The translations under genes and the position numbers were made by a program. Positions 22,103 through 37,011 of a DNA stretch of 52,363 nucleotides are shown piece after piece. This stretch comes from a virus (taxonomy: Duplodnaviria > Caudoviricetes), in the IMG/VR virus record IMGVR_UViG_3300022177_000001, positions 1-52,363 of that record. One strand, given 5' to 3'. Positions within the stretch are counted from its first letter, which is position 1. Each line of letters begins with the position of its first letter. The notes under the pieces are model-generated. The model saw only the letters and a list, made by a program, of their open reading frames with translations. It made no database searches and was not told where the DNA came from.

Positions 22103-22159
22103 GACTTCCCCCGTTGAAGCCGGGCCAAGGTCTTTCCCCTGGCCCGGCCATGTGGTTGT

Positions 22160-22627
22160 CTAGTTGGCCTTGGCGCTCACGGGCTGAACCTGTGCGCCGC
22201 CCAGGATATAGACGGCGGACAGGGTGGCGGTGTCGGTTCCGGAGGCGTTCATGTCCGGCGTGTACTGGACGCGCACGTACTGGTTGGCCCCGGAGATATC
22301 GAAGTCCAACTCCACGACGCCGGTTTCGGTGGAGCCGCCAGCGCCGCCGGTGGCCACAACCCCGGCGGCCTTGGCGGCACCGAAGTCGTCCACGCCAGCG
22401 CCGCCCGAGGAGGTGGCGTCCTGGAGGTTGGCCGCGATGGACAGGGTTTTCCCCTGCGCCAAAACGGCTTTGTAGGCAATGATGACCTTCAGGGAGTCGA
22501 ATCCCTGGCGGTCGATATAGGCCCCGTCCACTTCGGTGGCGTCGCCGGTTCCGCCAGCGGTGGCCGTCGAGATGGCGGCGTACCGTCCGGCCAGAAGTTC
22601 AGCGAGGCCCTGTGCGTTCACATGCAT
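22160..22627 (-). CDS. Putative capsid decoration protein
   Basis: Directly after the capsid gene; G..IDR.GF and YVRV beta-sandwich pattern. Confidence 0.6.
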   Translation of the reverse strand: MHVNAQGLAELLAGRYAAISTATAGGTGDATEVDGAYIDRQGFDSLKVIIAYKAVLAQGKTLSIAANLQDATSSGGAGVDDFGAAKAAGVVATGGAGGSTETGVVELDFDISGANQYVRVQYTPDMNASGTDTATLSAVYILGGAQVQPVSAKAN

Positions 22628-22657
22628 GGTTATTCTCCTTCTTGGGTGGTGGCGCGA

Positions 22658-23941
22658 CTACGCGCCCCAGGTGATGCCGGTGATGATGGCCGCCGAGCGG
22701 TCGTGCCGCAGGCAGAAGTCGTGCTTGGAAATGGCCCGGATGACGGTCTGATCCTGCGAAAAGGCCGCCACAACCTGGGATCCGTCATGGTAGGCGGCCT
22801 CGCTGGAAACCATCAACTCGATACCCTGTTCCTCGCCGATAACGGCGTCGGCCATGTCCACGAGGTAAAGCTCGGTGGCCGTGCCGGACCCCAGGTTGGT
22901 CGGGACCACGTTGGACTCGAAAATCGGATAGCCCTTGAGCTTGCCGTTCTCGACCTCGGGGAACGCCTTGTAGCCCGTGGCGTCGCGCAGGAACTCCAGG
23001 TAGATGCGCGACCGGGGCGGCATGATCCAGGCCGGGGAAATCATCCGGACATCGTTGTTGAGCAGGCTGGCGAGGCAGAACTTGAGGTCCGTCTCGATGT
23101 TGGCCAGGGACGTCCCGGCGGTGGACGTGCGGTTGCTGGACGTGATCCAGTGGTAAATGCCCTTGGGGGCACTGGCCGTGCCGTCGCCGCGCAGGAACTT
23201 GGCGTCTTCGGTCAGGGCCATGCCCGCCACGAGGTCTTCGGCCACGATAGCATCGGCTGCCGGGCCGTTGGCTTTGAGCAGGTCGTTCGAGATGGGCACC
23301 ACGGCGGCCAGCTTGCGGGAGTTCAACTGAATCTGCCCGAAGGCCATGCCGGTCTTGGTGATGTTGTTGTTTTCACCGACGTAGGAGGCGCTGGTTCCGG
23401 CGGTGATGCGCGGGACCAGGAGCGAACCGTTCATGGGCATGGTCCGGGCACCGGCCCGACGCACCACGGCGCGGGCGCGCAAAAGCTCGATGACCTCGCT
23501 GCTATAAGCGGCCGGGACCAGGAACCCGCCAGCGGAGCCGATGGCAGTCGCCAGGGCCTTGGTAATGGGGTGCTGGTCGCCATACAGCTTGGCGGCTGCC
23601 GCGCAAGATTCCATGGGGTTGCCCTTCCCGGCGGCCAGAGCGCGGACGAACTTGCCGAGATTCGCACCCTTCACCTTTTCGCCGGGATCGTCCATGGAGA
23701 TGAACGGCAGCCCGTCGGCCCCTCTCTGCGGCTCGGCTGGGACAGCACCCAGAGCTTTGAGGTCTTCCACGGTCTTCAAGTTCTTGATCTTGCTGTCGAT
23801 GGATTTGACTTCGGCGTCCAGGTCCGCGAACTCCTTGCCCTGTGCCTCGTCCAAGTCCTTTTCGCCAGCCTCGGCCAAAATGGCCTCCATCCGATCCACC
23901 TTCTTGGCCCGCTCCTCGCGGAGCGCCAGAATCTTGTCCAT
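22658..23941 (-). CDS. Major capsid protein, HK97 family
   Basis: N-terminal coiled-coil delta domain, GGFLVP, YVGE, KLAA.VPISN.LL and L.GDG...PKGI. Confidence 0.97.
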   Translation of the reverse strand: MDKILALREERAKKVDRMEAILAEAGEKDLDEAQGKEFADLDAEVKSIDSKIKNLKTVEDLKALGAVPAEPQRGADGLPFISMDDPGEKVKGANLGKFVRALAAGKGNPMESCAAAAKLYGDQHPITKALATAIGSAGGFLVPAAYSSEVIELLRARAVVRRAGARTMPMNGSLLVPRITAGTSASYVGENNNITKTGMAFGQIQLNSRKLAAVVPISNDLLKANGPAADAIVAEDLVAGMALTEDAKFLRGDGTASAPKGIYHWITSSNRTSTAGTSLANIETDLKFCLASLLNNDVRMISPAWIMPPRSRIYLEFLRDATGYKAFPEVENGKLKGYPIFESNVVPTNLGSGTATELYLVDMADAVIGEEQGIELMVSSEAAYHDGSQVVAAFSQDQTVIRAISKHDFCLRHDRSAAIITGITWGA

Positions 23942-23966
23942 CTGGATTCTCCTTTACCTGAGCGGG

Positions 23967-24758
23967 CTACGCCGCCCCTTTGAGTTTCAGAAGCTGAAGC
24001 GTAGCCTCAGCGCGCCGATACGACATCCCGGACGGCGCGGATTCGCCTTCCTGGGAAATGCTGGTTTTTTCCCCGGAATTATTGGCAATCTCGGCCTGTT
24101 TCTGCGCCGAGTTGTCTGCGGTTTGGGCGGTTTCCGTGGTCGGTTCGGGCGTGGTTTCAGCCTGAATTTCGGCCTTTTTGGGGGTCGATTTCAAAGCCCC
24201 AGTGGCCCCTTCGGCCGTGAAGGGGGAGATATCCAGCCCCTTGAAGCTGGCTTGAATCAGGGCGTCCGGATGCGCCGGGATCGGAACCACGGAGATTTCC
24301 AGGAGTTCGGCCTCAAGGATGTCGTAGCCCCACCGGCCGGACTCCTGGTCATCCACCAACTGCCAGCTGATACACATGAACCCGACGGAAACGGCGTTCA
24401 AACAGCCTTCCTCTATGAGCCGGAAGACGTTTTCGGCCGCCGGGTTGGCTTCGGCGGAAGCAAACTGGATTTTGACCACCAGGGCGTCGCCCTTGACCCC
24501 GATGTCTACGGCTTTTCCAATGGGCAGGGTGTGGGAGTCGTGCCCGAAAAGAATCACGGGGTTGGCCTTGAAGCGGTCAAGCCGCCACCCGTCGAGCTTG
24601 ATGGAGTCGCCGTAACGGTCCACAGCCTCGGTGGAGGCGACAAAGGTTACGGTACGGGCCTTGTCGTCGATGCCCTTGACTTCGACGTTATAGCCCTTGT
24701 GGACGGCCTTCCCGTCTTCGGGGCTGGCCCTGAACTGCGCGCTCGTGATGAAGTCCAT
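23967..24758 (-). CDS. Prohead protease, HK97 family
   Basis: DRYGD, NPVILFGHD...PIGK, SVGF and LLEISVV.IPA. Confidence 0.95.
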   Translation of the reverse strand: MDFITSAQFRASPEDGKAVHKGYNVEVKGIDDKARTVTFVASTEAVDRYGDSIKLDGWRLDRFKANPVILFGHDSHTLPIGKAVDIGVKGDALVVKIQFASAEANPAAENVFRLIEEGCLNAVSVGFMCISWQLVDDQESGRWGYDILEAELLEISVVPIPAHPDALIQASFKGLDISPFTAEGATGALKSTPKKAEIQAETTPEPTTETAQTADNSAQKQAEIANNSGEKTSISQEGESAPSGMSYRRAEATLQLLKLKGAA

Positions 24759-24766
24759 GGTGTCTC

Positions 24767-26374
24767 CTACCCCCCGAGGGTTATGAATCCTCGTTCCTCG
24801 TAAACGCTTGGCCCTGGCGCTCCGGCGTCGCCCACCATCGCCCCGTTCATGGCCATGGCCAGGGCCACGATGCCGTCGATGCGCCCCGTGCTCTTGATCT
24901 TGTCGAATTTGCGGTTCCCGGCCGGGTCGGTCTGGACGCGAACATTTGAGGCGCACATGGTCAGCACAGGATGGTTGCCGTGCGAAATCTTCCCCTCGGC
25001 AAGCGCGTCCTCAAGCGTCTCCACGGCCGGGTTCATGTCTTTGAAGCCCTGGCCATGCGGAATGAGCCGGATCGCGCCGTCAATCGGATCATCCTTGCCG
25101 TCGATCCAGACTTCCACGCCCTCTTCGGCCAAGGCGCGCTGCAAATCTTCGATGCGCCAGCGGTCGAAACGAAGGCCGCGCAAGGTGAATTGCGCGTGCA
25201 ACCGCCCGAGTTCTTGCGCCACGTAGCGGTAGTCGATGGTCTTGCCGGGAACGGAGGTCAGGTGGCCTTGTCTGGCCCACAAATCGTAAGGAACCTTGTC
25301 CTTGTCGGATCGGTCGCGGATGTTGTCGGCCGGGGTCCAGAAGAATGGCAGGATGTGCCACATGCCAGCGAGGTCGCGCGTCACGCATACCAGGGATGTC
25401 AGGTCGTTTTTCCCTGACAGGTCCAGCCCGGCATAAACCTGGAAGTCCTCGAAGGCGGACAAGTCCGGATGCGTCCCGTTGGCCCGCCACACATCCGGCG
25501 TGATGAAGTGCGCGGTCGCGTCGATGCGCTGATTCAGGTGCAGATTGCGGAACGCGGCTTCGGCCGAAGGCATCCGCCGGGCCTTGGTCGCCGTCTCGCG
25601 CATGGTCTTGAGCGAACAGAAATCGTCCAGGGCCGGGTTGCAGGCGAACCAAGTCTTTTCGTCCCACGGGTCGGCGTCTTTGGGCGCGGCGAACAGGCAG
25701 CACACCACCGTTGGGTCTTCGATTTCGCCGCTTTCGGCCTTCGTCCCGTAGTCGATGAGTTCCGACAGAAGCGCCTTGTCGTCCGGGGCCTGCGTGGAGA
25801 ACACGAACACCAGCGGTTCGGCGTGCGCGCCCCGGGAGGTCATGAGCGCGTCGTAAAGCGTCCGGTCACGGCCAAATTCGGCCAGTTCGTCAAAAAAGAT
25901 GACGGACGCGGACTTGCCCATCTTCCCCTTTTTCTCGCCGGAAAGGACTTGGTAGACGGACCCGGAAACGGGATCGATGATCTTCTTGCGGGACTCGACC
26001 ACATTCAGGCGCGCCGAAAGTTCTTCGTCGGCGTAGACCATGGCGGTCATGTATTTGAACAGGATTCCGGCCTGATCGGAGTCGATGGACAGGCTGTAAA
26101 GCTGGCCGTTGCGGATGGCTTCCGGGCCACACAGGTGCGCCAGTCCGAGCCCAGCCACCAAGGCGCTTTTCCCGTTCTTCCGGGGGATGGAAAACGTGGC
26201 TTCGCGGACCAGCCTCTTCCCGTCAGGCCCGACGGGCGCGTAGACGCGGCGGATGAACTTCTTTTGCCAGTCGCGCAACACAAGCGGTTGCCCTGCGTTC
26301 GCCCCGTCCGGGCACCGCAGGGTTTCCAGGAAGTCAATGACATCCTGGGCGCGCTTGTGGTTCATGTCAGCCAC
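24767..26374 (-). CDS. terL: Terminase large subunit
   Basis: PRKNGKS Walker A, FFDE Walker B, GLDLS nuclease motif, RIDG.VA. Confidence 0.97.
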   Translation of the reverse strand: MADMNHKRAQDVIDFLETLRCPDGANAGQPLVLRDWQKKFIRRVYAPVGPDGKRLVREATFSIPRKNGKSALVAGLGLAHLCGPEAIRNGQLYSLSIDSDQAGILFKYMTAMVYADEELSARLNVVESRKKIIDPVSGSVYQVLSGEKKGKMGKSASVIFFDELAEFGRDRTLYDALMTSRGAHAEPLVFVFSTQAPDDKALLSELIDYGTKAESGEIEDPTVVCCLFAAPKDADPWDEKTWFACNPALDDFCSLKTMRETATKARRMPSAEAAFRNLHLNQRIDATAHFITPDVWRANGTHPDLSAFEDFQVYAGLDLSGKNDLTSLVCVTRDLAGMWHILPFFWTPADNIRDRSDKDKVPYDLWARQGHLTSVPGKTIDYRYVAQELGRLHAQFTLRGLRFDRWRIEDLQRALAEEGVEVWIDGKDDPIDGAIRLIPHGQGFKDMNPAVETLEDALAEGKISHGNHPVLTMCASNVRVQTDPAGNRKFDKIKSTGRIDGIVALAMAMNGAMVGDAGAPGPSVYEERGFITLGG

Positions 26375-26804
26375 CGAACATCTTCCTTGCCGGGCGTTTC
26401 TCTATCTCCCCGGGCTCTTTGGCCGCCTGCTTGATCGAAACGCGGCTGTTGGCGCAGATGCGGAGCTTGGTGGCCAGGGCCGCCATGGTCGCGGCGGACT
26501 TCTCCATGATCTTGAACCAGGGGTTTTCGCGCGGGACCGGGCCGTTTTGCGTCATGACCACGATCACGGCTTCGTCGCCGTCGCACCGCTCACAGGCCAG
26601 GAAATGCTTCGCCTCGGCTTCGCAGTAGGCCCGCAAAAGCGGCAAATCTCCGGCCTTGAAGTGGTCCACGGCGTAGTCCTTGACGATGGAAAGCCAGCGG
26701 CCCCTGGCGCGCGGAGACATTCCGGCCGGAGGCCCTGGACGCTTCGCCGTCTTCGTGGCGACAACGGAGAGTTTCCCTGCCGGGGTCGGGCCGCGCTTAC
26801 CCAT
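26367..26804 (-). CDS. terS: Terminase small subunit (P27 family)
   Basis: GKRGP start, L..YC, ENPW, L.I...SR; overlaps the terL start. Confidence 0.9.
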   Translation of the reverse strand: MGKRGPTPAGKLSVVATKTAKRPGPPAGMSPRARGRWLSIVKDYAVDHFKAGDLPLLRAYCEAEAKHFLACERCDGDEAVIVVMTQNGPVPRENPWFKIMEKSAATMAALATKLRICANSRVSIKQAAKEPGEIEKRPARKMFGG

Positions 26805-27102
26805 GGGCCGCCTGCCTCCAGGGATGGTTCGGGGAAAGCGGGATGCCGTTCACGTCGCACCCCTTCACCAGAAATTCGTCTTCGGTCTGGTCGCGCTTCG
26901 AGTAGTTGCAATTCTCGCAAGCGGAACGGAGATTCGCCCGGTCAAAGAACTCCCCGCCCCGGGCAATCGGCGTGGCGTGGTCAACGGTCGTCGCCACGGT
27001 CACGCGCCCGGCTTGTTTGCAGTAGTGGCAAAGCGGGCTCTCGCGTAGGACGATGGCGCGAAGCTTTTTCCACTGCGCGGTGTGGTAGCGGGGATCGTCC
27101 AT
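26797..27102 (-). CDS. Terminase-associated HNH endonuclease (gp74-like)
   Basis: W..LR..VL...PLC..C, VDH..P...GG, NL...C..CN..K. Confidence 0.92.
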   Translation of the reverse strand: MDDPRYHTAQWKKLRAIVLRESPLCHYCKQAGRVTVATTVDHATPIARGGEFFDRANLRSACENCNYSKRDQTEDEFLVKGCDVNGIPLSPNHPWRQAAHG

Positions 27103-27225
27103 GCCTTTTCCTCTGTGCCGAAAAACAAAAAGCCGTGAATCTGGATGGTTCACGGCGGATGGTACAAGAGAAAAATAGAATGATGCTAGATAGTCGTTAC
27201 CATGCACGGTAACAAGTTCGCCCCA

Positions 27226-27253
27226 AAACAAAAGGGCGGCCAGAAGACCGCCC
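27226..27253 (-). terminator. Rho-independent terminator closing the TIGR operon
   Basis: Minus strand GGGCGGTC-TTCT-GGCCGCCC followed by TTTTGTTTT. Confidence 0.8.
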
Positions 27254-27283
27254 CTGTGATGGTGAAATGCTTGCGCGTGAGGG

Positions 27284-27910
27284 CTACTGTGCCATGGCCT
27301 CCCGTCGCGGGCAGTCCAGGTTGACCGGCACAAACGCCGCACTGTGGCCCTTGGTTTTCGCCAGCGCCGCCCGCAGGCGTTCGATGGTCTTGTCTTTTTC
27401 GGCCAATTCGGCGCGCAAAACCTGGATTTCCTCGGCGGCCTCGCGATACCTGGCCTCCCAATTGATGTACCGGATGACCTTTTTCGGCCTCGCGTGGGCG
27501 TCCAGAATCGCGTCCTTGACCTCGGAAGAAACCGGTGTGCTCCGCTTGTTTTCCTCGCGACGTAGGGCGTTGAAGATGATTGGGAGCTTGTCCTGGCCGC
27601 ACTGTTTGGCCGCCCGGGACACGAAGCCGATGCCGTATTTTTCGGCCTGATCGGGGAACTTGACGTAAAGCAACTTCGATTCCCGAAACTTGGTCATGGA
27701 GATGTCGAAGCACTCCCTGAGGTAGATGTCAAAATCGGCCTTGGCGTAGACCGGGTTTTCCTTGAACCGCCCGGTGTGCTCCAGATAGGCCAGGATGCCG
27801 ATGTACTTCCGGTGGGCGGTCAATTCGTCGGACTGGCAGGCCCGGATTGCGGCCTCAATGTCCGCAATGGGCTTGCTGTCGTACTTCGCTTTCAACTGAT
27901 TGATCTTCAT
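27284..27910 (-). CDS. Hypothetical protein, weakly DUF3102-like HTH plus C-terminal coiled coil (208 aa)
   Basis: AGGAGG RBS before MKINQ; F..YL.E.F.IS......LY..F pattern; co-oriented with tas. Confidence 0.7.
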   Translation of the reverse strand: MKINQLKAKYDSKPIADIEAAIRACQSDELTAHRKYIGILAYLEHTGRFKENPVYAKADFDIYLRECFDISMTKFRESKLLYVKFPDQAEKYGIGFVSRAAKQCGQDKLPIIFNALRREENKRSTPVSSEVKDAILDAHARPKKVIRYINWEARYREAAEEIQVLRAELAEKDKTIERLRAALAKTKGHSAAFVPVNLDCPRREAMAQ

Positions 27911-28037
27911 GGGGCCTCCTTTTCTCAAGCAAAAAGGCGATTGTTTCTCCGATGGTTTTGCCGAGCGTGGCGGAAAGTATTTTAATCTGCCTGTAAACCT
28001 CTGTATCTATAGGAAAGTTTACATTTTTCTTTGGCAT
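27855..28037 (-). CDS. Ribbon-helix-helix-like small DNA-binding protein
   Basis: KNVNFPIDTEVYRQIKILSATLGKTIGETIAFLL has a strand-helix-G-helix pattern; AAGGA RBS at the array end. Confidence 0.7.
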   Translation of the reverse strand: MPKKNVNFPIDTEVYRQIKILSATLGKTIGETIAFLLEKRRPHEDQSVESEVRQQAHCGH

Positions 28038-28050
28038 GGGCTTCCTTTAA

Positions 28051-28449
28051 GGGCGCATAGTCTTCATGGGCTTCAATGATCCTGTGGCTCGCACCATCCG
28101 ATTGGGTTTCACCGCCTTGGTGGCTCGCATGCTTAAAATGGGTTTCAAAGGCCCTCTGGCTCGCACGGCAGCGATGAGTTTCACGCTAGCAACGGCTCGC
28201 AGGCACGTAATGGGTTTCACAAGCACCCTGGCTCGCAACGCATCCCTGGGCTTCGCTGTGGTTTTCGACTCGCACCACCATAGTGGGTTTCCTGGTCTTC
28301 CTGGCTCGCATACTCCCAGTGGGGTTCAACGCATACTGGATCGCACGGCGACATTGGATTTCACACGTCCTTTGGCTCGCACGCCGCTTCTGGGTTTCAC
28401 TCAGACGCTTGGCTCGCAGTCTTCACCTGGGTTTCATGGTCATGGTGGC
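28051..28449 (-). ncRNA. TIGR-type dual-repeat guide array 2 (11 units of about 36 nt)
   Basis: Alternating TGCGAGCCA and TGAAACCCA repeats separated by unique spacers, mostly 9 nt (one 8 nt, two 10 nt). Confidence 0.93.
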
Positions 28450-28455
28450 AAAAAC

Positions 28456-29295
28456 TTACGCCGCCTTCTTCGCCTCGAAATAGAACGGCTCAACGATCCC
28501 GGTATGCCCCATGATCGTGCCCGCGTAGGGAGGCGTCACGGTCAACCCGTCCAGGGTCCGGGCCACGGCCCAGAAGTGGGCCAGGAACAGTTTCGCCGCC
28601 TCGTGCCGGGCGCGGTTCAGACGATGCCCCTTCTTGACCTCGGGTTGCAGCCGCTCAATGCGCGCCTTGCGCTCAAGCAGGAACGCGCCGTAGGGGGTCT
28701 TGGTGGTCTGGCGGTTGAACTGGTCCCCGATGAGGTAGCAGGTGGCGCGGCCAACGCTTGACCAGTTTTGCCGCTTGCCCTTCTCGCGGCGCGGCTTCTT
28801 TCCGTCCAGGACGGCCATGCCCATGAAGGCCCACCACTTGGAGATGTTCGGGAAATCCCGAAGCTCGATCCGGTGCTTGGTCACACCGTCGCCCTTGACG
28901 GACTTCTCGCACGCCGGGCACCAGAAAGTGCCGTCCTTCTTTTCGAGGACCGCCCCGCATGTGCAAACAGGCGTAAACCTGTAGTAGTACAACATGATGA
29001 GCCGCCCCGCGATGGCCGGGCCGATGCCGGGAACGTGCCGCATCCAATCCGTGTAGATCGGCCACGCCAGCAAATCCTTCTCGATGGCCCGGGACAGCCG
29101 GGACTTGATCTGCTCAAGCCCGGAGGATTGCTTGGTACCGTTCAAGAACGGGTCATGTTTCGGATCGGCGTCCGGGTTCAGGGCGTGAAGGCGGTTTTTC
29201 ATGCCCGTGATGACTTTGTTCAGGGCGTCATAGTCGCGGATCGACTTGTTCAGCCGCTGAATCGCCAGTTCGCGTTCCGGGGTGTCGGGCTTCAT
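28456..29295 (-). CDS. tasA: TasA-like Nop-domain RNA-guided DNA-binding protein with Zn-ribbon insertion (279 aa)
   Basis: Coiled coil, VPGIGP..A..LI, F.NISK.WAF.G, and GH..NRA.....KLFL.HFW. No N-terminal DEDD RuvC domain. AGGAGG RBS before MKPDT. Flanked by 36-nt arrays. Confidence 0.85.
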   Translation of the reverse strand: MKPDTPERELAIQRLNKSIRDYDALNKVITGMKNRLHALNPDADPKHDPFLNGTKQSSGLEQIKSRLSRAIEKDLLAWPIYTDWMRHVPGIGPAIAGRLIMLYYYRFTPVCTCGAVLEKKDGTFWCPACEKSVKGDGVTKHRIELRDFPNISKWWAFMGMAVLDGKKPRREKGKRQNWSSVGRATCYLIGDQFNRQTTKTPYGAFLLERKARIERLQPEVKKGHRLNRARHEAAKLFLAHFWAVARTLDGLTVTPPYAGTIMGHTGIVEPFYFEAKKAA

Positions 29296-29310
29296 TGGTC
29301 CTCCTGGGTT

Positions 29311-29640
29311 TGGGGTCGCACAAGGACAAGGGGTTTCATGCCCGGCATGGCTCGCATAGTGGTTACGGGGTTCAAGGTCGGGTTGACTCGCACTGGCGGT
29401 CTGGGTTTCACGCAAAAGCTGGCTCACACGACGGGCCTGTGGTCAAAGGAAACCGTGGCGCATATAGGGGCTGGACTTCATCGTAACCTTGGCTTGCATT
29501 GTCTTCCTGGGGTTCAACGCGCCTTTGGCTCGCACCATCCCTTCGGGTTTCAGTCTCCACATGACTCGCACCCCGCTACTGGGTTTCACCCTCCACTTGG
29601 CTCGCACGACATGGATGGGTTTCATGCCTCTCCGGGCAAC
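29311..29640 (-). ncRNA. TIGR-type dual-repeat guide array 1 (9 units, one degenerate)
   Basis: Same two 9-nt repeats with 9-nt unique spacers and 36-nt period. Confidence 0.92.
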
Positions 29641-29647
29641 CGATGAA

Positions 29648-29676
29648 ATAATACTTTCAGCAAAAATCCATGTCAA
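29648..29676 (-). promoter_or_regulatory. Sigma70 promoter of the TIGR-Tas operon
   Basis: TTGACA, 17 bp, TATTAT; the predicted start near 29641 falls at the first partial repeat. Confidence 0.85.
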
Positions 29677-29719
29677 GCACGGGTTGCGGTTTTTTGCAAA
29701 AAGATTTATTCCTGCCGCC

Positions 29720-29980
29720 ATGCCCACAGACAACAAAATCCTTGCCTCTGAAGAAGAAAAATTTCAGGTGTGGTGCGTGAAAAGCCGGATAGATGAATTT
29801 GCCCGCATGAGAGGGCTTCGCATGGATGAACTGGCCGAAGCGTCTGGCCTGTCCGTCGTGACAATTCGGAAAGCTCGCCGGGACGGCCCGGATGGAATCG
29901 ACACGTTGACGCTCAAGAATCTTCAAAAAATCGCCCGCGCCCTTGACCTTCGCCCAAAAGACCTCTTCTTTGACGACTAA
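29720..29980 (+). CDS. XRE-family HTH regulator
   Basis: RGLRMDELAEASGLSVVTIRK...TLKNLQKIARALD...DLF. Confidence 0.9.
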   Translation: MPTDNKILASEEEKFQVWCVKSRIDEFARMRGLRMDELAEASGLSVVTIRKARRDGPDGIDTLTLKNLQKIARALDLRPKDLFFDD

Positions 29981-30204
29981 ACCCGCGCCTCCATCCCCGC
30001 CCCGCGCCCGGCGTCCATGGCTGGAACGTCAAATTCGATGCTCCGGAAGTTACGACCGCAGTTTGGGCACTTGTGGTAGCGGAACCGCGTCGCGCCGTCC
30101 CATTTTCTGACCTTGTAAGCCGGGACAGAAGTCGCCCCGCACCCAGGGCACCGCGCCCCACTCTTCGGACTGTAGGTGACGCCGTAGTCTCCGGAATCAG
30201 GCAT
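29977..30204 (-). CDS. Ogr/Delta-like zinc-finger protein
   Basis: CPGCG...RYHKCPNCG..F.SIE. Confidence 0.6.
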   Translation of the reverse strand: MPDSGDYGVTYSPKSGARCPGCGATSVPAYKVRKWDGATRFRYHKCPNCGRNFRSIEFDVPAMDAGRGAGMEARV

Positions 30205-30748
30205 TCCGCTCCCCCCTAATCTCTTCCCGCCGCTTTTCGGCCAGGATCATCCGGCGGCGCGTGTTGCGGTTCGTGTTGGGGCGGTGGAAAGTAGGGCGAA
30301 GACGGGATGCGCGCACAGCCTCGGCCATCGCTTTTCTCAAGTCTCGGAGCCTTGAGGACACTTCTTCGCGAATCGTCCCCTTCATCGGCTCAAAATCACG
30401 CATGAATTTGTTTCTGTGCCGCTTTTCGTCGGCCTCCCGGGCGAAGTTGCGCATCCAGAGGGGGGTAAGGACGCCCCCGGCGAGGAACAGGGAGGAGCGG
30501 GGTATCGGGGCACCAGCCAGTTCGTCGAGGCGCAAAATTTTCTCCCACGTCTCCTTGCTCACAAGGCCGCCCGTGGCAAAGCCGTGAGGGTTGCCGCTGG
30601 CGCAAACCGCCGCCCTGTCATCGCCTTGAGCATGGTCAACGCCCATTACGCGGGCCAAATCGTCGGCCTTGGCATCCGCTTGGCGCAACCCGGTTTCGAT
30701 CTCCTGGCCGTCCACGAAAACTTTTCCATCCGCTATGATATTGGGCAT
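30197..30748 (-). CDS. Hypothetical phage protein
   Basis: Coupled ORF in the minus-strand operon. Confidence 0.6.
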   Translation of the reverse strand: MPNIIADGKVFVDGQEIETGLRQADAKADDLARVMGVDHAQGDDRAAVCASGNPHGFATGGLVSKETWEKILRLDELAGAPIPRSSLFLAGGVLTPLWMRNFAREADEKRHRNKFMRDFEPMKGTIREEVSSRLRDLRKAMAEAVRASRLRPTFHRPNTNRNTRRRMILAEKRREEIRGERNA

Positions 30749-31002
30749 CAGTCAACACCTTCCCATTGAACGCATCCAAATTCGGGGCGCGTCGCCAAAA
30801 AACCATAGTAATCATCGCGGTCACCTGACACCGCCAAAGAATCCGGGTGTTCAGGGTCTCCATCGAGAGTTTCTGTCAAAAGGCACTTCCCGAGCCCGTC
30901 ATAAGAGAACGCCCCTGGCGCGGTATAGACGCCTGGGAAAACAAACGCATCTTTCTCCCAATGTTTGCAGTCTTTACACCTGTCCACTTCCCCATCCCCC
31001 AT
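30748..31002 (-). CDS. Cys-rich hypothetical phage protein
   Basis: CKDCKHW...G.C...T...FGC..W pattern. Confidence 0.65.
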   Translation of the reverse strand: MGDGEVDRCKDCKHWEKDAFVFPGVYTAPGAFSYDGLGKCLLTETLDGDPEHPDSLAVSGDRDDYYGFLATRPEFGCVQWEGVD

Positions 31003-31483
31003 CTTTTTCTCTTTTCTCCCGGCTGTCGCGCCGCACCGCCTCCATGAACTCCAGGTCGTTGGTAACGGCGTATTCCATGGTCGCACACCCGTCGTCAGCC
31101 CTGGACGTGAGTTCACGCCTGATCTTGGGATAGCGGGGCTTTTTGCGAGGTTTTCCGATGGTCCTCATGGGGACCGTCTGATGGTCCTCATCGGGACCAT
31201 CTTTATTATCTCCACATATTTCTTCCAGGGCGGGCGCAAATTTGTATATCGTTGCCCTCACCGTCCTGGTTGCGGTGACAACTCCTTTTTGAACCAGCCC
31301 CGCTATCGCCCGCCGCAGACTCCCGCCTTTCAAGCTGGTGGCCGTGGACATCCATTCCCTGCTACGGATCACCCTGCCCGTGCGACGGTCCCGGGCGTGG
31401 GCGAGGCACAGTGCCAAACATTTTTCAGGTGCCGTCAGGTCTTGTCTCGCCATAATCATCGCCTGGATCGAGTACGTGTCCAC
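30974..31483 (-). CDS. Winged-HTH DNA-binding protein
   Basis: LT..EK..L...S.......T.L....L.RAI..L..KG.V. Confidence 0.7.
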   Translation of the reverse strand: MDTYSIQAMIMARQDLTAPEKCLALCLAHARDRRTGRVIRSREWMSTATSLKGGSLRRAIAGLVQKGVVTATRTVRATIYKFAPALEEICGDNKDGPDEDHQTVPMRTIGKPRKKPRYPKIRRELTSRADDGCATMEYAVTNDLEFMEAVRRDSREKREKDGGWGSGQV

Positions 31484-31722
31484 ATTTCGCGCTCCCCGGT
31501 GCGCCTCTCACCATCCTGGAAAGTTTTGCCGGGGCAGGCGGGCCAGGGAACCCGCTTTTCAATTGGCCGATCTAGCCCCGGGCAAAATCTGAAATCTGGC
31601 CAGGGGGATTTCTCCCCCCGGCAGAGGCCGCCCTTTGGTGTGGAGGGGGCACCTGGACGGCCGAATGTCAGGCTTGGGCAGAGCCCGCGCCCATCGCTTT
31701 GACCCATGGGGTCATGCGAAAA

Positions 31723-32109
31723 TCAGCCCCCGGCCGCCTTCACGGCCATGTGTGCGGCCACGGATGACCAGACGGTGTTGCCGATCATGGTGATGGTCGC
31801 CGCCGCAATGACCCACCCGAATTTGACCAGAAAGCCCACAATGACCTCCAGCCGGGTCAGCCGGGCGTCGTTGTCGGCGGCCGACTTCCGCGAGTCTTTG
31901 AGGTCGCGTATCTCGCGGTCCCGGGCGACGTTCGCGGCCTCTTCGGACGCACACCGCTTGTCCCGATCCGACTGCTTGGCCTCGATGCGCGCCACGGCGG
32001 CGGCCGTGTCCTTGCGCACCCCCTCGATGGCGGCCAAAATGCGCGCCTCCATGGCCGTCATCTTGTCTTCCAAGCGCCTGACCTCAGTTTGCAGTTGTTC
32101 CGGCGGCAT
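31723..32109 (-). CDS. Coiled-coil protein with C-terminal membrane anchor (lysis-cassette associated)
   Basis: MPPEQ start, heptad pattern, terminal hydrophobic segment. Confidence 0.65.
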   Translation of the reverse strand: MPPEQLQTEVRRLEDKMTAMEARILAAIEGVRKDTAAAVARIEAKQSDRDKRCASEEAANVARDREIRDLKDSRKSAADNDARLTRLEVIVGFLVKFGWVIAAATITMIGNTVWSSVAAHMAVKAAGG

Positions 32110-32120
32110 TGTCCCGGCCC

Positions 32121-32513
32121 CTAGAGCAACGCGCCAATCAGGTACGGCATAGCCGCGCTCATGAGCGACGTGACAAGTGCCCTGGCCGTGGTCCATGTCG
32201 TCGCGCCCACTTCCACGTCCTGCGCGGCCAGAGCGGCCTTGAAGGTCGCTGTCGCGGCCCGCAGCTCGGTCAAAACGGGATCGATGTCCTGTTCGATGTG
32301 CGCGGCCTTCTCGGGGTACTTGATCTTCGCCCCGGCGACGGCCCCGGCCACAGTCGCCAGCGTCGAATCCAGGTATTCGGCCCCGGCCTGCATCTGGGCC
32401 AACGTGGTGGGCGTGGTTGTGCCGGTGGTCAGTCCGGCACATCCCGGCAGGCACAGCGTCAGGGACAGGACCAGGGCAAAGGCGGCCAGGGTTTTGAAGG
32501 TGGTGCGCTTCAT
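32121..32513 (-). CDS. Lipoprotein, possible spanin component
   Basis: Signal peptide with LPGC lipobox, hydrophobic C-terminus, lysis context. Confidence 0.7.
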   Translation of the reverse strand: MKRTTFKTLAAFALVLSLTLCLPGCAGLTTGTTTPTTLAQMQAGAEYLDSTLATVAGAVAGAKIKYPEKAAHIEQDIDPVLTELRAATATFKAALAAQDVEVGATTWTTARALVTSLMSAAMPYLIGALL

Positions 32514-32845
32514 GGGTTCTCCCCCAGGTAGTATTTGGCCCCGCCCTCGCGGACAGCCGTGAACATAGCGAATGCGCGAAGCATCCGCAGCGGCAACAGC
32601 CACCGCGAACCCTGCGCAATCAAAAGGCACATATTGGCGAAAAACCGCGCATCGGCCGATGAGCGGCTGTTTCCGAAGGCATATTCCACATCATGGCAGT
32701 TGCAGGCGGGGGAGACGTCAAGGCCCCAAATCGTGTTGAGCTTGAGCTTCCACGAGGCGGGTCCGCACCCGTTCATCTGGGCGTCACGGTGCGCCTTGGG
32801 GATGGTTTCCCACCAGGAGGGAAGGGCGAGGGTCACGTCAGGCAT
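32510..32845 (-). CDS. Phospholipase A2-like protein
   Basis: NGCG, AC..HD..Y and R..AD..F..NM motifs. Confidence 0.6.
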   Translation of the reverse strand: MPDVTLALPSWWETIPKAHRDAQMNGCGPASWKLKLNTIWGLDVSPACNCHDVEYAFGNSRSSADARFFANMCLLIAQGSRWLLPLRMLRAFAMFTAVREGGAKYYLGENP

Positions 32846-33068
32846 TTTCGCTTTCCTTGCCCACGAGCGGCCCCTTGGCGGTCGCACGCCCCCAGAAAAT
32901 CACGGGGATGGCCGCAAGCGTCAGGTCTTGGAGCGGATAAATCTCCGTTCCGATGCGGATGGCGATGCCCCATTCCTGGGGAACATGCTGATTGATCCAG
33001 CCGAGAAGGACTGCCAATCCAGCCCACACGGTCTTCGACTTGAGCAGCTTTTCAAGATCGATGGTCAT
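32838..33068 (-). CDS. Putative holin
   Basis: KSKTVW motif, two hydrophobic segments, GR..A..P charged tail. Confidence 0.7.
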   Translation of the reverse strand: MTIDLEKLLKSKTVWAGLAVLLGWINQHVPQEWGIAIRIGTEIYPLQDLTLAAIPVIFWGRATAKGPLVGKESENA

Positions 33069-33207
33069 CCGAGCACCCTCCGGTAAATCAGCCGTTCGTA
33101 CCTGAAGGCCCATTTGTTCGCAGTCACGTCGGAGCATCCCATATCTTTAAGGCGGCAGTAGACGTGCAAAGGGCAAAAAACGTGCTGTAACCACCCGCGA
33201 AGGTTCA

Positions 33208-33624
33208 TCACTTTTTTACCGCCAACTCCACGGCCTGGGCGATGGTCACGGAGTTATAGGGCTGCATCCCGTTTTCCATCTGGATGAACGCGGGGATCAT
33301 CGCCGGGAGCATGTCACGCACAACGATTTTCGCGTCAGGCGAAACCCCCGCCCGGGAAGCAACGAAGTTGGCGTAGGCCGTGGTGTCGTTTTCGTTCGGG
33401 GGAGCCCACCGGCTGACCAGCTTGCGGATCGTGTCCAGGCCGTAGTTTTTTTGGTAGTTCAAAAGGATTCGAGCCATGGCCCGGATGCCGTTGACAGGGG
33501 AGTCGAACGTGACAAACGCCCCGTCGTCGCCCACCTTGCCCCGCCAGTCCGTGGCCGACTTCCGGATGTTGCCGGGGTTGTTGTTGCGGATGCCACGAGG
33601 AAGTTTTTTTTCAGCGCGGGTCAT
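33208..33624 (-). CDS. Lysozyme-like protein (RGIRNNNPGNIR family)
   Basis: RGIRNNNPGNIR, F.....GIRA, RWAP..ENDT..Y and ENG motifs. Confidence 0.85.
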   Translation of the reverse strand: MTRAEKKLPRGIRNNNPGNIRKSATDWRGKVGDDGAFVTFDSPVNGIRAMARILLNYQKNYGLDTIRKLVSRWAPPNENDTTAYANFVASRAGVSPDAKIVVRDMLPAMIPAFIQMENGMQPYNSVTIAQAVELAVKK

Positions 33625-34024
33625 GTTTTTTTACCTCCCCGGCCAGTTCGACCGGCGTCATGTAGCGGTAGATGCCCTTGATCCTGGTCCACCGAACCAG
33701 ATTTCCGGCGCGGATATCGACATGAAACCCGGGGCGTGGCCGCCACTCGGGATAGAAGCCGATGCCGCCGAAGCCAACGGTTTCCAGGATTTCAAGTTCT
33801 CGGGAATGATCCAGGCCGGACGCGAAGTGCAGGTCTGCGGCCATGCCGCGATAGTGGTAGGAGTTGGGCGAATGCCCGTCGTTGTCCCAGGCGACATGGA
33901 TGTGGATGGGCAGCCCGGCGAGGTCTCTGACTGCGTCCAACTTGTGAAGCAACGCATCCGCAACGCGGGAGGGGTCTTTTGGGAACTCGGATGCCTTGAA
34001 ATATTTGAGCGGGGGAAAGGACAT
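33611..34024 (-). CDS. Peptidase M15 family endolysin
   Basis: YF...EF, S.H..G.AAD, GGIG.Y and FHVD.R zinc-peptidase motifs. Confidence 0.88.
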   Translation of the reverse strand: MSFPPLKYFKASEFPKDPSRVADALLHKLDAVRDLAGLPIHIHVAWDNDGHSPNSYHYRGMAADLHFASGLDHSRELEILETVGFGGIGFYPEWRPRPGFHVDIRAGNLVRWTRIKGIYRYMTPVELAGEVKKHDPR

Positions 34025-34451
34025 ACGACGCCTCCCAAGGGTGGGCCGCCGCGACCTCGTGATGACGACGGGCGGCCCCTTTTGGGAAGGCATCTTACAG
34101 CGGAATCAAGAGGGCGTGGTGTCTTAAATTGTCTAATATTGTTCAAAATTGTGCAGTGAGGGCTGGCACTTTTGCGTGAAAATGTGGCCGAAACTCTGTA
34201 TGAAGGGGCACACTCGGTTACCAGCTATACCCCCCCAGGGTTTCACCCCCCCCACCTCCCCCTCGCGCGCGCGTGAGACGGCTACCGCGTCGGGACGAGC
34301 TTGCCGCCGTCCTGGTCCAGGCCGTGACCGCCCACGAGCTAGCCGCGCCTGACTCCTGCCTGCCGTTGACCATCATTTGCGGATCATTCCGGTTTAACCT
34401 CGTGCCGTCCTGGTCCGCGTCTTGCTTTGGCCCTGAGCAGGAGGAACGACC

Positions 34452-34691
34452 ATGACCACCACACCCGAGCTTGACCACACCCAAAGCCAGGCCCCGGCTT
34501 GTGATCTGCTTTCGGCCGCTGAGGCCGCGCGACTGATCGGATTTCGAGCGGTGCAAATGGTTTACCGCCTCGCGGACCTCAAGCCCGCGCGGACCAAACC
34601 CCGGCTTTACCACCTCGCGGACGTGCAGCGGATCGCGGGGGAGTACGAGCGGGCAGGCCGGAGCGGCACCATGCGACGTACAAAATCTTGA
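34452..34691 (+). CDS. Small HTH protein (excisionase/MerR-like)
   Basis: LLSAAEAARLIG......VYRL...LY.L.DV; GAGGA RBS. Confidence 0.65.
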   Translation: MTTTPELDHTQSQAPACDLLSAAEAARLIGFRAVQMVYRLADLKPARTKPRLYHLADVQRIAGEYERAGRSGTMRRTKS

Positions 34692-34768
34692 ACCTTTGCC
34701 CGGCGAAATTCCCCCGCAAACCCGCATGGCATGGCTACATCTTATTGAAATGATTGAAGTATAATTAT

Positions 34769-34784
34769 TTGTACCGAAGTACAA
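34769..34784. promoter_or_regulatory. Palindromic operator-like site in an AT-rich leader
   Basis: TTGTAC-CGAA-GTACAA next to TATAAT, upstream of the plus-strand operon. Confidence 0.5.
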
Positions 34785-34928
34785 TTTTTTTTACGAGCTT
34801 GCCCGGCTATCGTTTGCAAATACCTGAAATCATTCATCGGTTAAATGCTTGTACGAGTGGCACGCCTCTTGCTTTACCTTTGGCATAGGCGAACGGGATC
34901 GGCCCGGGGCCACAAACAGGAGACCGCC

Positions 34929-35393: not shown

Positions 35394-35402
35394 GAGACCA
35401 CC

Positions 35403-35687: not shown

Positions 35688-35759
35688 CCCCCAGCCGCCT
35701 GCCCGGCGGCACTATGCCCGGGACGCCTGGGCATACACTGCCGAGCAACCGAGGACCAC

Positions 35760-36890: not shown

Positions 36891-36904
36891 AAAGATAGAT
36901 TAAA

Positions 36905-36974: not shown

Positions 36975-37011
36975 CAAACAATCCCTACGCAGCAACCCGC
37001 CGGTCCCTGGG

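What the first reader, a model, noticed from the sequence alone, without database searches (positions are those of the whole stretch)
27226..29980. Prophage-encoded TIGR-Tas-type RNA-guided module: two dual-repeat guide arrays around a Nop/IS110-like gene
Seen: on the minus strand, a TTGACA-17-TATTAT promoter is followed by array 1 (9 units), a 279-aa gene, array 2 (11 units), two small genes and a terminator. Each unit is TGCGAGCCA, 9-nt unique spacer, TGAAACCCA, 9-nt unique spacer (36 nt). Known: this architecture, with UG...CCA box C/D-like motifs and a Nop-domain protein, defines TIGR-Tas (Faure et al., Science 2025), where 36-nt guides pair their two spacers with opposite DNA strands without a PAM. 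It is not CRISPR, and no cas genes are present. Inference: a lysogen-expressed moron giving about 20 guides against competing mobile elements or host genes, inserted upstream of the packaging genes.
Basis: partly seen in the sequence, partly recalled or inferred. Interest (0 to 1): 0.96.

Follow-up and report, generated by a model that had tools for sequence, protein, structure and literature searches.

The report
Phage TIGR-TasA guide RNA module
A viral contig carries a typical TIGR-TasA system: two arrays of short dual-spacer guide RNAs around a nuclease-free RNA-guided DNA-binding protein, so it is a new example of a kind first described in 2025, not a new kind.

Summary
On the minus strand, a sigma-70-like promoter is followed by a 9-unit array, a 279-aa gene, an 11-unit array, two ORFs and a hairpin terminator. 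Units alternate TGCGAGCCA (edge) and TGAAACCCA (loop) with mostly 9-nt unique spacers.

The protein is a Tas protein. Its best solved relative by sequence and by fold is TIGR-TasR (9mty), followed by TasH and then IS110-family recombinases. It has no nuclease domain, so it is TasA-type. It keeps the Tyr/His pair that processes pre-tigRNA in SpTasH, and it carries a family-invariant four-Cys insertion.

The 208-aa downstream gene is a conserved partner, found next to tasA in 50 of 64 related loci. It is probably the "TasParB" of Faure 2025, but the ParB likeness is inconclusive.

Contigs from four metatranscriptome runs cover the operon.

"Prophage" and "lysogen-expressed" are not shown. The record is a linear viral fragment, estimated 67% complete, with no integrase found.

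I found no target. There are no self-matches above control, no cross-matches to related loci, and only chance-like hits for 7 of 20 guides in IMG/VR.

A relative with 95%-identical TasA shares almost no spacers.

Verdict: a new member of a known kind, of moderate interest.

The parts
29720..29980 (+). Divergent XRE/Cro-C1-type HTH regulator gene (86 aa)
   Evidence: Pfam HTH_26 E 1.2e-8 and HTH_3 E 8.9e-7. PHROG repressor families reach E 1e-4 to 3e-3. A 51%-identical homologue sits in the same divergent position in L001, but a homologue was found in only 1 of 64 related loci.
29648..29676 (-). Sigma-70-like promoter TTGACA-17-TATTAT
   Evidence: It matches 11 of 12 positions and is the only promoter-like site in 27000..30300. 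RNA-library contigs of three runs have upstream ends at 29625, 29634 and 29643. This is only a weak hint of a transcription start.
29312..29642 (-). TIGR array 1: 9 units (unit 6 degenerate), from a 5'-truncated edge repeat to a degenerate last edge repeat 6 nt before the tasA ribosome-binding site
   Evidence: Unit table, repeat positions, period 36, exact repeat counts against shuffles.
28456..29295 (-). tasA: 279-aa nuclease-free Tas protein with coiled-coil N-terminus, four-Cys insertion (C111, C113, C126, C129), Nop-type C-terminal domain and Y257/H264
   Evidence: Translation. PDB phmmer gives 9mty E 3.5e-29 and TasH E 1.5e-7. AF2 pLDDT 86.9. Foldseek top hits are 9mty and TasH entries. 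Invariant residues in 29 family members. PHROG 4285 E 1.5e-20.
28049..28454 (-). [quoted passage not shown]
   Evidence: Unit table, repeat positions, period 36.
27855..28037 (-). 60-aa ORF, possibly a small ribbon-helix-helix-like regulator; not conserved
   Evidence: ORF list. No Pfam or PHROG hit. No homologue in 0 of 64 related loci. The close relative L001 lacks the corresponding 127 nt. The ribbon-helix-helix reading is my inference from the sequence pattern only.
27284..27910 (-). p208: 208-aa conserved TasA partner with a helical N-terminal domain and a C-terminal coiled coil; candidate TasParB
   Evidence: A homologue lies beside tasA in 50 of 64 related loci. Alignment A2. AF2 pLDDT 87.1. 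Weak ParB/KorB/Spo0J DNA-binding-domain matches, Z 4.8-5.4, over residues 27-144. No Pfam or PHROG family.
27232..27255 (-). Intrinsic terminator closing the operon
   Evidence: 10-pair stem with 7 G-C pairs, a 4-nt loop and a T-rich tail. One RNA-library contig begins at 27251.

Best explanation
This is a dual-repeat TIGR-TasA system carried by a tailed-phage genome, next to its packaging genes.

One promoter most likely drives a transcript of about 2.4 kb: array 1, tasA, array 2, a small ORF, p208, terminator (inferred from the anatomy).

TasA has a coiled-coil N-terminus and a Nop-type C-terminal domain, and should dimerise like other Tas proteins (inferred by homology). It should bind the UG (box D) and CCA (box C) motifs of the edge and loop repeats. 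It should cut the precursor inside the edge repeats with its Tyr257/His264 pair. That would release up to 20 tigRNAs of 36 nt, each made of half an edge repeat, spacer A, the loop repeat, spacer B and half an edge repeat (inferred).

Each ribonucleoprotein should recognise an 18-bp DNA site that reads spacer A followed by the reverse complement of spacer B, with no adjacent motif required.

TasA has no nuclease domain. The expected outcome is therefore stable binding and bending of the DNA, blocking transcription or replication, rather than cleavage.

p208 is a conserved co-factor of unknown role.

Shown here: the array anatomy, the family membership of the protein, the conserved residues, the partner gene, and the presence of the operon in RNA libraries. 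Not shown here: processing, DNA binding, and the identity of the targets.
For: Anatomy.

Both repeats start with UG and end with CCA. The loop repeat is A-rich. The edge repeat can form the extra C3:G6 pair. These are the rules given for TaTasR (PMC12045711 section 8).

Protein, by sequence: phmmer against the PDB gives 9mty (TIGR-TasR) E 3.5e-29 over residues 65-102 and 147-273, and TasH E 1.5e-7.

Protein, by fold: the AF2 model has pLDDT 86.9 and pTM 0.85. All ten best Foldseek hits are TasR or TasH chains, followed by ISCro4 and IS621.

No nuclease domain: only 64 residues precede the first aligned block, against 154 in TasR. Pfam gives only one sub-threshold zinc-finger hit.

Processing residues: the ungapped alignment to SpTasH places Y257 and H264 on Y289 and H296. 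Those are the published pre-tigRNA processing residues. Both are invariant in 29 of 29 family members.

Published behaviour of the kind: TasA RNPs hold 36-nt RNAs. A TasA represses transcription in a guide-dependent way and binds target DNA in EMSA.

Transcription: contigs of four metatranscriptome runs lie on the operon. In run X3 two overlapping contigs tile 27251..29634. Bins at 30007..31340 are empty in three of the four runs.
Against: No target was found, so the biological role is open.

Repression was shown for a stem-loop-type TasA (MbTasA), not for a dual-repeat TasA with this four-Cys insertion and this partner.

Contigs from RNA libraries cannot show 36-nt RNAs, strand or level. The tool also warns that DNA may be present in such libraries.

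Four of 20 units depart from 9+9 geometry and may be inactive.

The role of p208 is unknown, and its conservation suggests that simple steric repression by TasA alone is not the whole mechanism.
Confidence: 0.75

Rival explanations
1. RNA-guided tethering or partition. TasA-tigRNA marks DNA sites, and the ParB-like partner p208 loads, bridges or spreads there. This would serve maintenance or segregation of an extrachromosomal prophage, or silencing of a domain, rather than point repression.
For: p208 sits beside tasA in 50 of 64 loci. Three ParB-family DNA-binding domains (ParB 6s6h Z 5.4, KorB Z 4.9, Spo0J Z 4.8) are among the ten best VIA matches and cover the longest stretch, residues 27-144. 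The Atlas points to Plasmid_parti_N, DUF3102 and HTH_ParB clusters. Faure 2025 reports tasA operons with a ParB-like gene. No integrase was found in the contig.
Against: All structural scores are in the range the tool calls uninformative for helical proteins. There is no Pfam or PHROG ParB hit for any of 30 members. No N-terminal ParB CTPase domain is evident. No guide matches the contig itself above control, although the contig is only about 67% complete.
Confidence: 0.12
2. Self-regulation. The guides target the phage's own genome to time its life cycle, for example by repressing lytic or packaging genes.
For: Xu 2026 lists regulation of the viral life cycle as one possible role. The operon sits at the early/late boundary beside a divergent XRE regulator.
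Against: None of the 40 target words (20 guides, both orders) matches the 52-kb contig with 2 or fewer mismatches. With 3 or fewer mismatches the real words gave 5 hits from 40 queries and the mispaired controls gave 75 from 760. A relative with 95%-identical TasA has almost wholly different spacers, which fits poorly with fixed self-sites.
Confidence: 0.07
3. Guide-directed cleavage in trans. TasA only finds the site, and a separate nuclease (the adjacent HNH protein or a host enzyme) cuts it.
For: An HNH endonuclease gene lies directly downstream, at 27102..26797.
Against: The HNH gene lies after the operon's terminator. It belongs to the common HNH-TerS-TerL packaging set. A homologue is near tasA in only 6 of 64 loci.
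Confidence: 0.04
4. A decaying, non-functional remnant of a TIGR locus.
For: One degenerate unit, three units with 8- or 10-nt spacers, and several variant repeats.
Against: tasA and p208 have intact reading frames with all family-invariant residues. 18 repeats are exact. The promoter and terminator are intact. The operon is present in RNA libraries.
Confidence: 0.02

Closest known systems
TIGR-TasA systems, including the tasA-tasParB operons of Faure et al. 2025 (PMC12045711; e.g. FpTasA of Flavonifractor plautii)
   Same: Dual-repeat array with a 36-nt period, UG...CCA repeats and 9-nt spacer pairs. Arrays lie on both sides of the gene. The protein is a solo-Nop type without a nuclease. The system is on a phage. 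A co-transcribed partner gene is separated from tasA by an array.
   Different: I could not compare sequences with FpTasA or TasParB, because the supplements (fig. S14, table S1) are closed. This clade has an invariant CxC...CxxC insertion that the main texts do not mention. The ParB likeness of p208 is inconclusive here.
TaTasR (PDB 9mty), the RuvC-bearing Tas nuclease
   Same: It is the best sequence and fold match. The repeat logic is the same. The coiled coil and Nop domain are shared.
   Different: TasR has an N-terminal RuvC domain of about 150 aa and cuts both strands. The window protein has 64 residues in that place and no nuclease domain. It carries a 44-residue four-Cys insertion (residues 103-146) where TasR has 5 residues.
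SpTasH of Salicola phage CGphi29 (PDB 9w03, 21kl)
   Same: Dual-repeat system on a phage. The C-terminal loop with the Tyr/His RNA-processing pair is shared: Y289/H296 aligns with Y257/H264.
   Different: TasH has an N-terminal HNH nuclease. Only the last 58 residues align significantly by sequence.
MbTasA and inactive TasR repressors (Xu et al. 2026, bioRxiv 10.64898/2026.09.09.750476)
   Same: Nuclease-free Tas proteins acting as RNA-guided DNA binders and reversible transcriptional repressors. This is the mechanism I propose here.
   Different: Those are stem-loop-type systems that lack the Tyr/His processing loop. The window system is dual-repeat and keeps it.
IS110-family bridge-RNA recombinases (IS621, ISCro4) and box C/D snoRNP Nop5
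   Same: A shared RNA-binding Nop-type fold. IS621 and ISCro4 chains follow the Tas chains in Foldseek (E 7e-3 to 1e-2). PHROG 4285, which the protein matches, is labelled "transposase".
   Different: No DEDD/RuvC-like recombinase domain, no bridge RNA and no transposon ends. Guides come in arrays. No Nop5 chain appears in the Foldseek rows shown.
CRISPR-Cas, especially nuclease-free type IV and V-M interference
   Same: Arrays of repeats and unique spacers are processed into guides. Interference without cleavage is the analogy drawn in Faure 2025.
   Different: Here there are two alternating 9-nt repeats and split 9+9-nt spacers that pair with opposite strands, with no PAM. No Cas family appeared among the window proteins I scanned.

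Membership tests
TIGR-Tas (dual-repeat type) | Array of two distinct alternating 8-12-nt repeats separated by ~9-nt spacers, with a unit of ~36 nt repeated about 5-15 times | tested here: met
   There are 9 and 11 units. The repeats are 9 nt. 16 of 20 units have 9+9-nt spacers. The period is 36. Exact repeat counts are 10 and 8, against 0.60 and 0.49 expected. Definition.
TIGR-Tas (dual-repeat type) | Both repeats begin with UG (box D) and end with CCA (box C); the loop repeat is A-rich; the edge repeat has one extra base pair | tested here: met
   The repeats are TGCGAGCCA and TGAAACCCA. C3:G6 can pair in the edge repeat. The variant TGTGAGCCA keeps a wobble pair there, and in TGCGAGTCA the box-pair position C7 becomes U, which would give G2:U7. 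The pairing is read from sequence and was not measured.
TIGR-Tas (dual-repeat type) | [quoted passage not shown] | tested here: met
   Starts: CGGTTGCCC and TTTTTGCCA. Ends: TGCGACCCC and TGCGCCCTT. The terminator that the paper places after the array lies here after the two downstream genes.
TIGR-Tas (dual-repeat type) | Adjacent gene encodes a Tas protein (Nop-type RNA-binding domain plus coiled coil) | tested here: met
   phmmer gives 9mty E 3.5e-29. Foldseek gives 9mty E 1.3e-11, TM 0.59, and the ten best hits are all TasR or TasH chains. The AF2 model has long N-terminal helices 6-39 and 60-75. Dimerisation itself was not tested.
TIGR-Tas (dual-repeat type) | Tyr/His processing pair on the C-terminal loop (SpTasH Y289/H296) | tested here: met
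   Y257 and H264 align to Y289 and H296 without gaps (residues named). Both are invariant in 29 of 29 family members.
TIGR-Tas (dual-repeat type) | Array is processed into 36-nt tigRNAs bound by the Tas protein | not testable with these tools
   Only assembled contigs of RNA libraries were available. They show that the operon is present in RNA libraries, not small RNAs.
TIGR-Tas (dual-repeat type) | Guide-dependent binding of an 18-bp DNA target by tandem spacers on opposite strands | not testable with these tools
   No natural target was found by computation. This needs EMSA or a reporter assay.
TasA subtype | No HNH or RuvC nuclease domain fused to the Nop domain | tested here: met
   Only 64 residues precede the first block aligned to TasR residue 155. 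Pfam gives no nuclease family at E up to 10. The model shows only helices there.
tasA-tasParB operon (Faure 2025, fig. S14) | Co-transcribed partner gene homologous to ParB, dimerising through its C-terminus | tested here: inconclusive
   The partner is conserved in 50 of 64 loci and has a C-terminal coiled coil. ParB, KorB and Spo0J DNA-binding domains reach only Z 4.8-5.4. Foldseek finds nothing at E 0.001 or below. None of 30 members hit a ParB Pfam family. I could not see the published TasParB sequences.
CRISPR-Cas | One repeat of 25-36 nt alternating with single spacers of similar size, with cas genes nearby | tested here: not met
   Two alternating 9-nt repeats and 9-nt spacers. The neighbouring genes are XRE, a zinc-ribbon protein, HNH, TerS and TerL.
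IS110-family transposase | N-terminal DEDD/RuvC-like catalytic domain plus C-terminal domain with catalytic serine, and a single bridge RNA | tested here: not met
   No IS110 Pfam family is reported at E up to 10. No N-terminal catalytic domain. IS621 and ISCro4 chains match only at Foldseek E 7e-3 to 1e-2, after all the Tas chains.

The most novel reading that the evidence does not exclude
TasA and its conserved partner p208 form a two-protein RNA-guided machine that does more than block a promoter. The tigRNA-TasA dimer bends DNA at an 18-bp site. The ParB-like, coiled-coil p208 then nucleates there to bridge, spread or tether DNA. This would give the phage programmable silencing or partition-like control over host or rival DNA. 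Its guide set would turn over quickly by an unknown mechanism.
Probability: 0.12. Interest if true: 0.7.

Novelty: new member of a known kind. Interest (0 to 1): 0.35.

Why it matters
TIGR-Tas is a recent discovery. Both papers that I read for its biology say that the natural targets, the way spacers are acquired, and the role of nuclease-free TasA in its native setting are unknown.

This locus does not answer those questions, but it is a good place to ask them:
- It is a complete, intact TasA operon with its conserved partner gene.
- It lies on a 52-kb phage contig.
- Its DNA and RNA both occur in a maintained mixed culture that has several metatranscriptome runs.
- A sister locus has 95%-identical TasA but an almost wholly different guide set.

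The partner gene family has no entry in Pfam or PHROGs. "TasParB" appears in only one paper of the searched library. Any function assigned to it would therefore be new.

Tried and rejected
Self-targeting. All 20 guides were searched in both half-site orders against the contig with the arrays masked. There were 0 hits at 2 or fewer mismatches. At 3 or fewer mismatches there were 5 hits from 40 queries, against 75 from 760 mispaired controls. Rejected for the 52 kb available.

Cross-targeting of related phages. 371 distinct spacer pairs from 65 sources (64 loci plus the window) gave 742 queries against all loci. One-mismatch hits numbered 3 and two-mismatch hits 60. The 2214 mispaired controls gave 5 and 152. 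There is no enrichment. My parser found units in only 49 of the 65 sources, and loci cover at most 10 kb on each side of tas.

IMG/VR scans. I scanned 7 of the 20 guides as spacer A plus the reverse complement of spacer B. One scan was ungapped and six allowed a 0-2-nt gap. The scans returned 0, 10, 0, 2, 7, 9 and 0 loci. Only one guide had ungapped 18/18 matches. Six of those were homologous contigs of 42-50% G+C, hit at codons 11-17 of a small gene, plus one unrelated contig. No contig was hit by two guides. Only one hit locus (L090) shows any similarity to the window: a weak tblastx match to 20889-21338. I read all of these hits as chance. The other 13 guides, metagenome contigs and host genomes were not scanned.

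Half-site order. I deduced spacer A plus the reverse complement of spacer B from the published 8-nt 3' overhang and the C-5 rule. The figure itself was not visible.

Palindromic or repeat-derived spacers. Across the family, same-unit spacer A and spacer B similarity matched the control (1.6% against 1.6% at 3 or fewer differences). Similarity of spacers to the loop repeat was 13 of 742 against 0.9% in the control. Nothing usable came of this.

p208 identity. A PDB profile search gave only coiled-coil hits. Foldseek gave nothing at E 0.001 or below. Pfam on 30 members and PHROGs on 30 members gave no shared family. A profile search of the 5.8-billion set returned 9 unannotated proteins. Cultured phages gave no match.

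TasA-p208 binding. Complex prediction returned no verdict, with score 0.00 against a mark of 0.32. This is no evidence either way.

Rfam. No family matched at E up to 1 in 26800..30300 or in 34000..38200.

Cultured phages. TasA has only two weak partial matches (30-31% identity over 35-46% of the protein) among 50,697 records.

Parts of the stretch without RNA-contig cover (30007..31340 in three runs) are holes in contig data, not proof of silence.

Host. I did not identify the host.

Full report
WHAT IS THERE. The window is the whole of a 52,363-base virus record. It is classed as linear, with a CheckV completeness estimate of 67.

On the minus strand I read the following, in order:
- a TTGACA-17-TATTAT promoter (29676..29648, 11 of 12 positions);
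- array 1 (29642..29312, 9 units);
- a 279-aa gene (29295..28456) behind AGGAGG;
- array 2 (28454..28049, 11 units), which starts 2 nt after the stop codon;
- a 60-aa ORF (28037..27855);
- a 208-aa ORF (27910..27284);
- a 10-pair hairpin terminator (27255..27232).

A divergent XRE-type regulator gene lies upstream (29720..29980, plus strand; Pfam HTH_26 E 1.2e-8). HNH endonuclease, small terminase and large terminase genes follow downstream on the same strand.

THE ARRAYS ARE REAL. TGCGAGCCA occurs exactly 10 times and TGAAACCCA exactly 8 times in the window. All copies lie in the two arrays on the minus strand. Shuffles give 0.60 and 0.49 expected, and none of 100 shuffles reaches the observed number.

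[quoted passage not shown] Sixteen of 20 units have 9+9-nt spacers. Three units of array 2 have an 8- or 10-nt spacer A. Unit 6 of array 1 is degenerate. [quoted passage not shown]

All of this matches the description of dual-repeat TIGR arrays in Faure et al. 2025. That includes the UG start and CCA end of both repeats, the A-rich loop repeat, and an extra pair in the edge repeat. From that paper (PMC12045711) I read sections 4, 5, 6, 8, 10, 44 and the figure legends, plus passages.

THE PROTEIN IS A TasA.
- Pfam gives nothing but a sub-threshold zinc-finger hit.
- A sequence search of the PDB gives 9mty chain A at E 3.5e-29. Foldseek titles that entry "TIGR-TasR in complex with tigRNA and target DNA". 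TasH follows at E 1.5e-7.
- An AlphaFold2 model built on 29 family members has pLDDT 86.9.
- Its ten best Foldseek matches in the PDB are all TasR or TasH chains. IS110-family recombinases (ISCro4, IS621) follow at E near 1e-2.
- Only 64 residues precede the first block that aligns with TasR residue 155, so there is no room for the RuvC domain. The model shows a helical hairpin there. The protein is therefore the nuclease-free TasA type.
- The ungapped alignment to SpTasH puts Y257 and H264 on Y289 and H296. Two papers name those as the catalytic pair for pre-tigRNA processing. One is PMC13421893, where I read passages only. The other is Xu et al. 2026 bioRxiv, where I read sections 5, 10, 12 and 13 plus passages.
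- Both residues are invariant in 29 of 29 family members.
- C111, C113, C126 and C129 are also invariant. They lie in a 44-residue beta-rich insertion (residues 103-146) where TasR has 5 residues.
- The word "zinc" does not occur in the main text of the three Tas papers I opened. The four listed of the five papers that hold both "tigRNA" and "zinc" are, by title, one methods preprint and three reviews (listing only). I could not see any supplements.

THE FAMILY.
- The 5.8-billion-protein set holds at least 193 relatives at E 0.001 or below, among 1110 candidates scored. None listed carries a functional name: the few names given are "hypothetical protein", one automatic DUF983 label and one uninformative MGnify tag.
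- IMG/VR holds 54 related loci.
- GTDB genomes hold 10 related loci, in MAGs labelled Desulfobacula, Smithella, Desulfobacteraceae, Methanoperedens and others.
- The edge and loop repeats are nearly the same across loci whose TasA is only 45-50% identical.
- Among 50,697 cultured-phage records there are only two weak partial matches.

THE PARTNER GENE. A tblastn search of the window's neighbouring proteins against the 64 loci gave these counts:
- the 208-aa protein: 50 of 64 loci, nearly always just downstream of tasA with an array between them;
- the 60-aa ORF: 0 of 64;
- the XRE regulator: 1 of 64;
- the HNH protein: 6 of 64;
- the large terminase: 20 of 64.

So p208 is a family-wide partner, the 60-aa ORF is local, and the module often sits by the packaging genes.

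Faure 2025 reports tasA operons with a ParB-like gene, tasParB. Arrays lie upstream, downstream or between the two genes, and the partner dimerises through its C-terminus. p208 fits that picture in position and in having a C-terminal coiled coil.

My own tests of ParB likeness are inconclusive:
- Foldseek finds nothing at E 0.001 or below.
- The exhaustive aligner puts ParB, KorB and Spo0J DNA-binding domains at Z 5.4, 4.9 and 4.8 over residues 27-144. That is within the range the tool calls common for helical proteins.
- The protein atlas gives only leads: DUF3102, Plasmid_parti_N and HTH_ParB.
- None of 30 members hit a ParB family in Pfam or any shared family in PHROGs.

"TasParB" occurs in only one paper of the searched library.

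EXPRESSION. Twelve public runs hold part of the stretch. Two DNA runs of a mixed culture may be its source. Four metatranscriptome runs of mixed cultures hold 34-85% of its sampled words.

I laid those four runs on 18001..38000:
- In run X3, two overlapping contigs tile 27251..29634. That is from the terminator to about 14 nt below the -10 box.
- Runs X4 and X5 have contigs over array 1 ending at 29625 and 29643.
- Three of the four runs have no cover at 30007..31340, so the libraries are not uniformly contaminated with phage DNA.
- Capsid-region bins (22003..24003) have word depths similar to the TIGR bins.
- The 34.4-38 kb region has far higher word depth.

I take this as evidence that the operon is transcribed in a culture where the phage is active. 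It is not evidence for lysogen-specific expression, strand, ends or small RNAs.

LIFESTYLE. No tyrosine or serine recombinase family matches the contig. There are no host flanks. A CII-like regulator (Pfam Phage_CP76, E 2.7e-12) lies at 48434..48967 and hints at a temperate phage. "Prophage" is therefore unproven.

TARGETS. The published 8-nt 3' overhang and the C-5 rule fix the target as spacer A followed by the reverse complement of spacer B (my deduction).
- No guide matches the contig itself above the mispaired control.
- 371 spacer pairs from the family do not match the 64 loci plus the window above control.
- Seven of the 20 guides scanned in IMG/VR gave 0 to 10 loci each, with no convergence.
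- The one ungapped family of hits lies in unrelated contigs of 42-50% G+C, against 59.5% for the window.

The targets remain unknown, as both source papers say for the family at large.

ARRAY TURNOVER. Locus L001, on a 65.5-kb contig, has a TasA that is 95% identical in protein, and the tasA DNA aligns at 89%. Its p208 is 89% identical, the repeats are the same, and a similar XRE gene sits in the same position. Its flanks are otherwise unrelated.

Its arrays have 6 and 13 units and share no identical spacer pair with the window. Aligned unit by unit, one register (offset -1) shows clearly homologous spacers: 7 of 9 in one unit, and 8 of 9 plus 7 of 9 in another. The other spacers in that register are at or near the random level of about 2.4 of 9.

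The scaffold is thus inherited while most guides have been replaced or changed beyond recognition. This change is much faster than in the genes beside them. The mechanism is unknown.

HOW IT MOST LIKELY WORKS. One transcript carries both arrays and both genes. TasA dimers bind the UG/CCA motifs and cut within the edge repeats using Tyr257/His264. This would also separate the tasA and p208 messages from the arrays and could feed back on their expression (inference).

The resulting RNPs, with up to 20 guides of 36 nt, bind matching 18-bp sites. Having no nuclease, they block transcription or replication there. This was shown for a stem-loop-type TasA, and only RNA binding has been shown for a dual-repeat TasA. 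p208 acts with TasA in a way not yet known.

I put 0.97 on membership of TIGR-TasA.

COMPARISON AND NOVELTY. The locus meets every sequence-level defining feature of dual-repeat TIGR-Tas and of the TasA subtype. It fails those of CRISPR-Cas and of IS110 transposases.

The kind has been known since 2025, with 20,096 tas loci and 6,685 arrays catalogued from public data. This contig may already be among them, but I could not check. It is a new member of a known kind.

Modestly new points are the invariant four-Cys insertion of this clade, the breadth of the p208 partnership (50 of 64 loci), the near-complete guide turnover between sister loci, and the native RNA evidence.

Noticed in passing
window 25917-25948, and RNA-library contigs of runs X3 and X4: Contigs in two metatranscriptome runs match only these 32 bases of the large terminase gene. 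On both sides they continue into the same repeat of about 27-29 nt, of the CCCCGCG...CGCGGGGAAC type (loose ends). This looks like a transcribed CRISPR spacer against this phage in the same culture, and could identify the host.
   Followed up: partly
window 36907-36975: Two copies of a repeat very like that CRISPR repeat lie about 15 nt apart on the minus strand. They fall inside the stretch with by far the highest RNA-contig word depth, 34.4-38 kb. No Rfam family matches. They could be a phage-borne mini-array or an RNA decoy for Cas proteins; RNA anti-CRISPRs are recalled from memory, not checked.
   Followed up: partly
window arrays, spacers at 28427-28419, 28301-28293, 28066-28058 and 29507-29499: GAAGAC occurs in 4 of the 40 spacers. 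Random 9-mers of the same strand give 0.098 expected, and 0 of 5000 resamples reach 4. Two of these spacers also lie within 2 mismatches of their neighbouring loop repeat. I have no explanation. No comparable signal appears family-wide: GAAGAC occurs 6 times in 742 spacers (0.93 expected), 4 of them from the window.
   Followed up: partly
window 33293-33313 and 37709-37729: All four RNA runs hold one high-depth contig (word depth 88-172) that joins these two places, skipping 4395 bases. Only 21 letters fit on the shorter side, and long unlike sequence lies beyond. It may belong to another organism or reflect a short repeat. Not resolved.
   Followed up: no
L001 (IMG/VR contig of 65,547 nt) and L002: The block of XRE 3' end, arrays, tasA and p208 is 87-93% identical in DNA to the window, while the DNA on both sides is mostly unrelated. 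The module seems to move between phage genomes as a cassette.
   Followed up: partly
window 3268-12558, minus strand: A single ORF of 3096 aa lies within the stretch of minus-strand ORFs upstream of the packaging genes. I did not examine it.
   Followed up: no
window 48434-48967, minus strand: A CII-like regulator (Pfam Phage_CP76, E 2.7e-12). No integrase or serine recombinase was found on the contig.
   Followed up: partly
related loci L005, L038, L007, L055, L008-L010, L012 and others: Repeat variants differ between loci. For example, edge ...GCTA occurs with loop ...CCTA in L005 and L038, and edge ...GCGA with loop ...CCCA in many loci. [quoted passage not shown]
   Followed up: no
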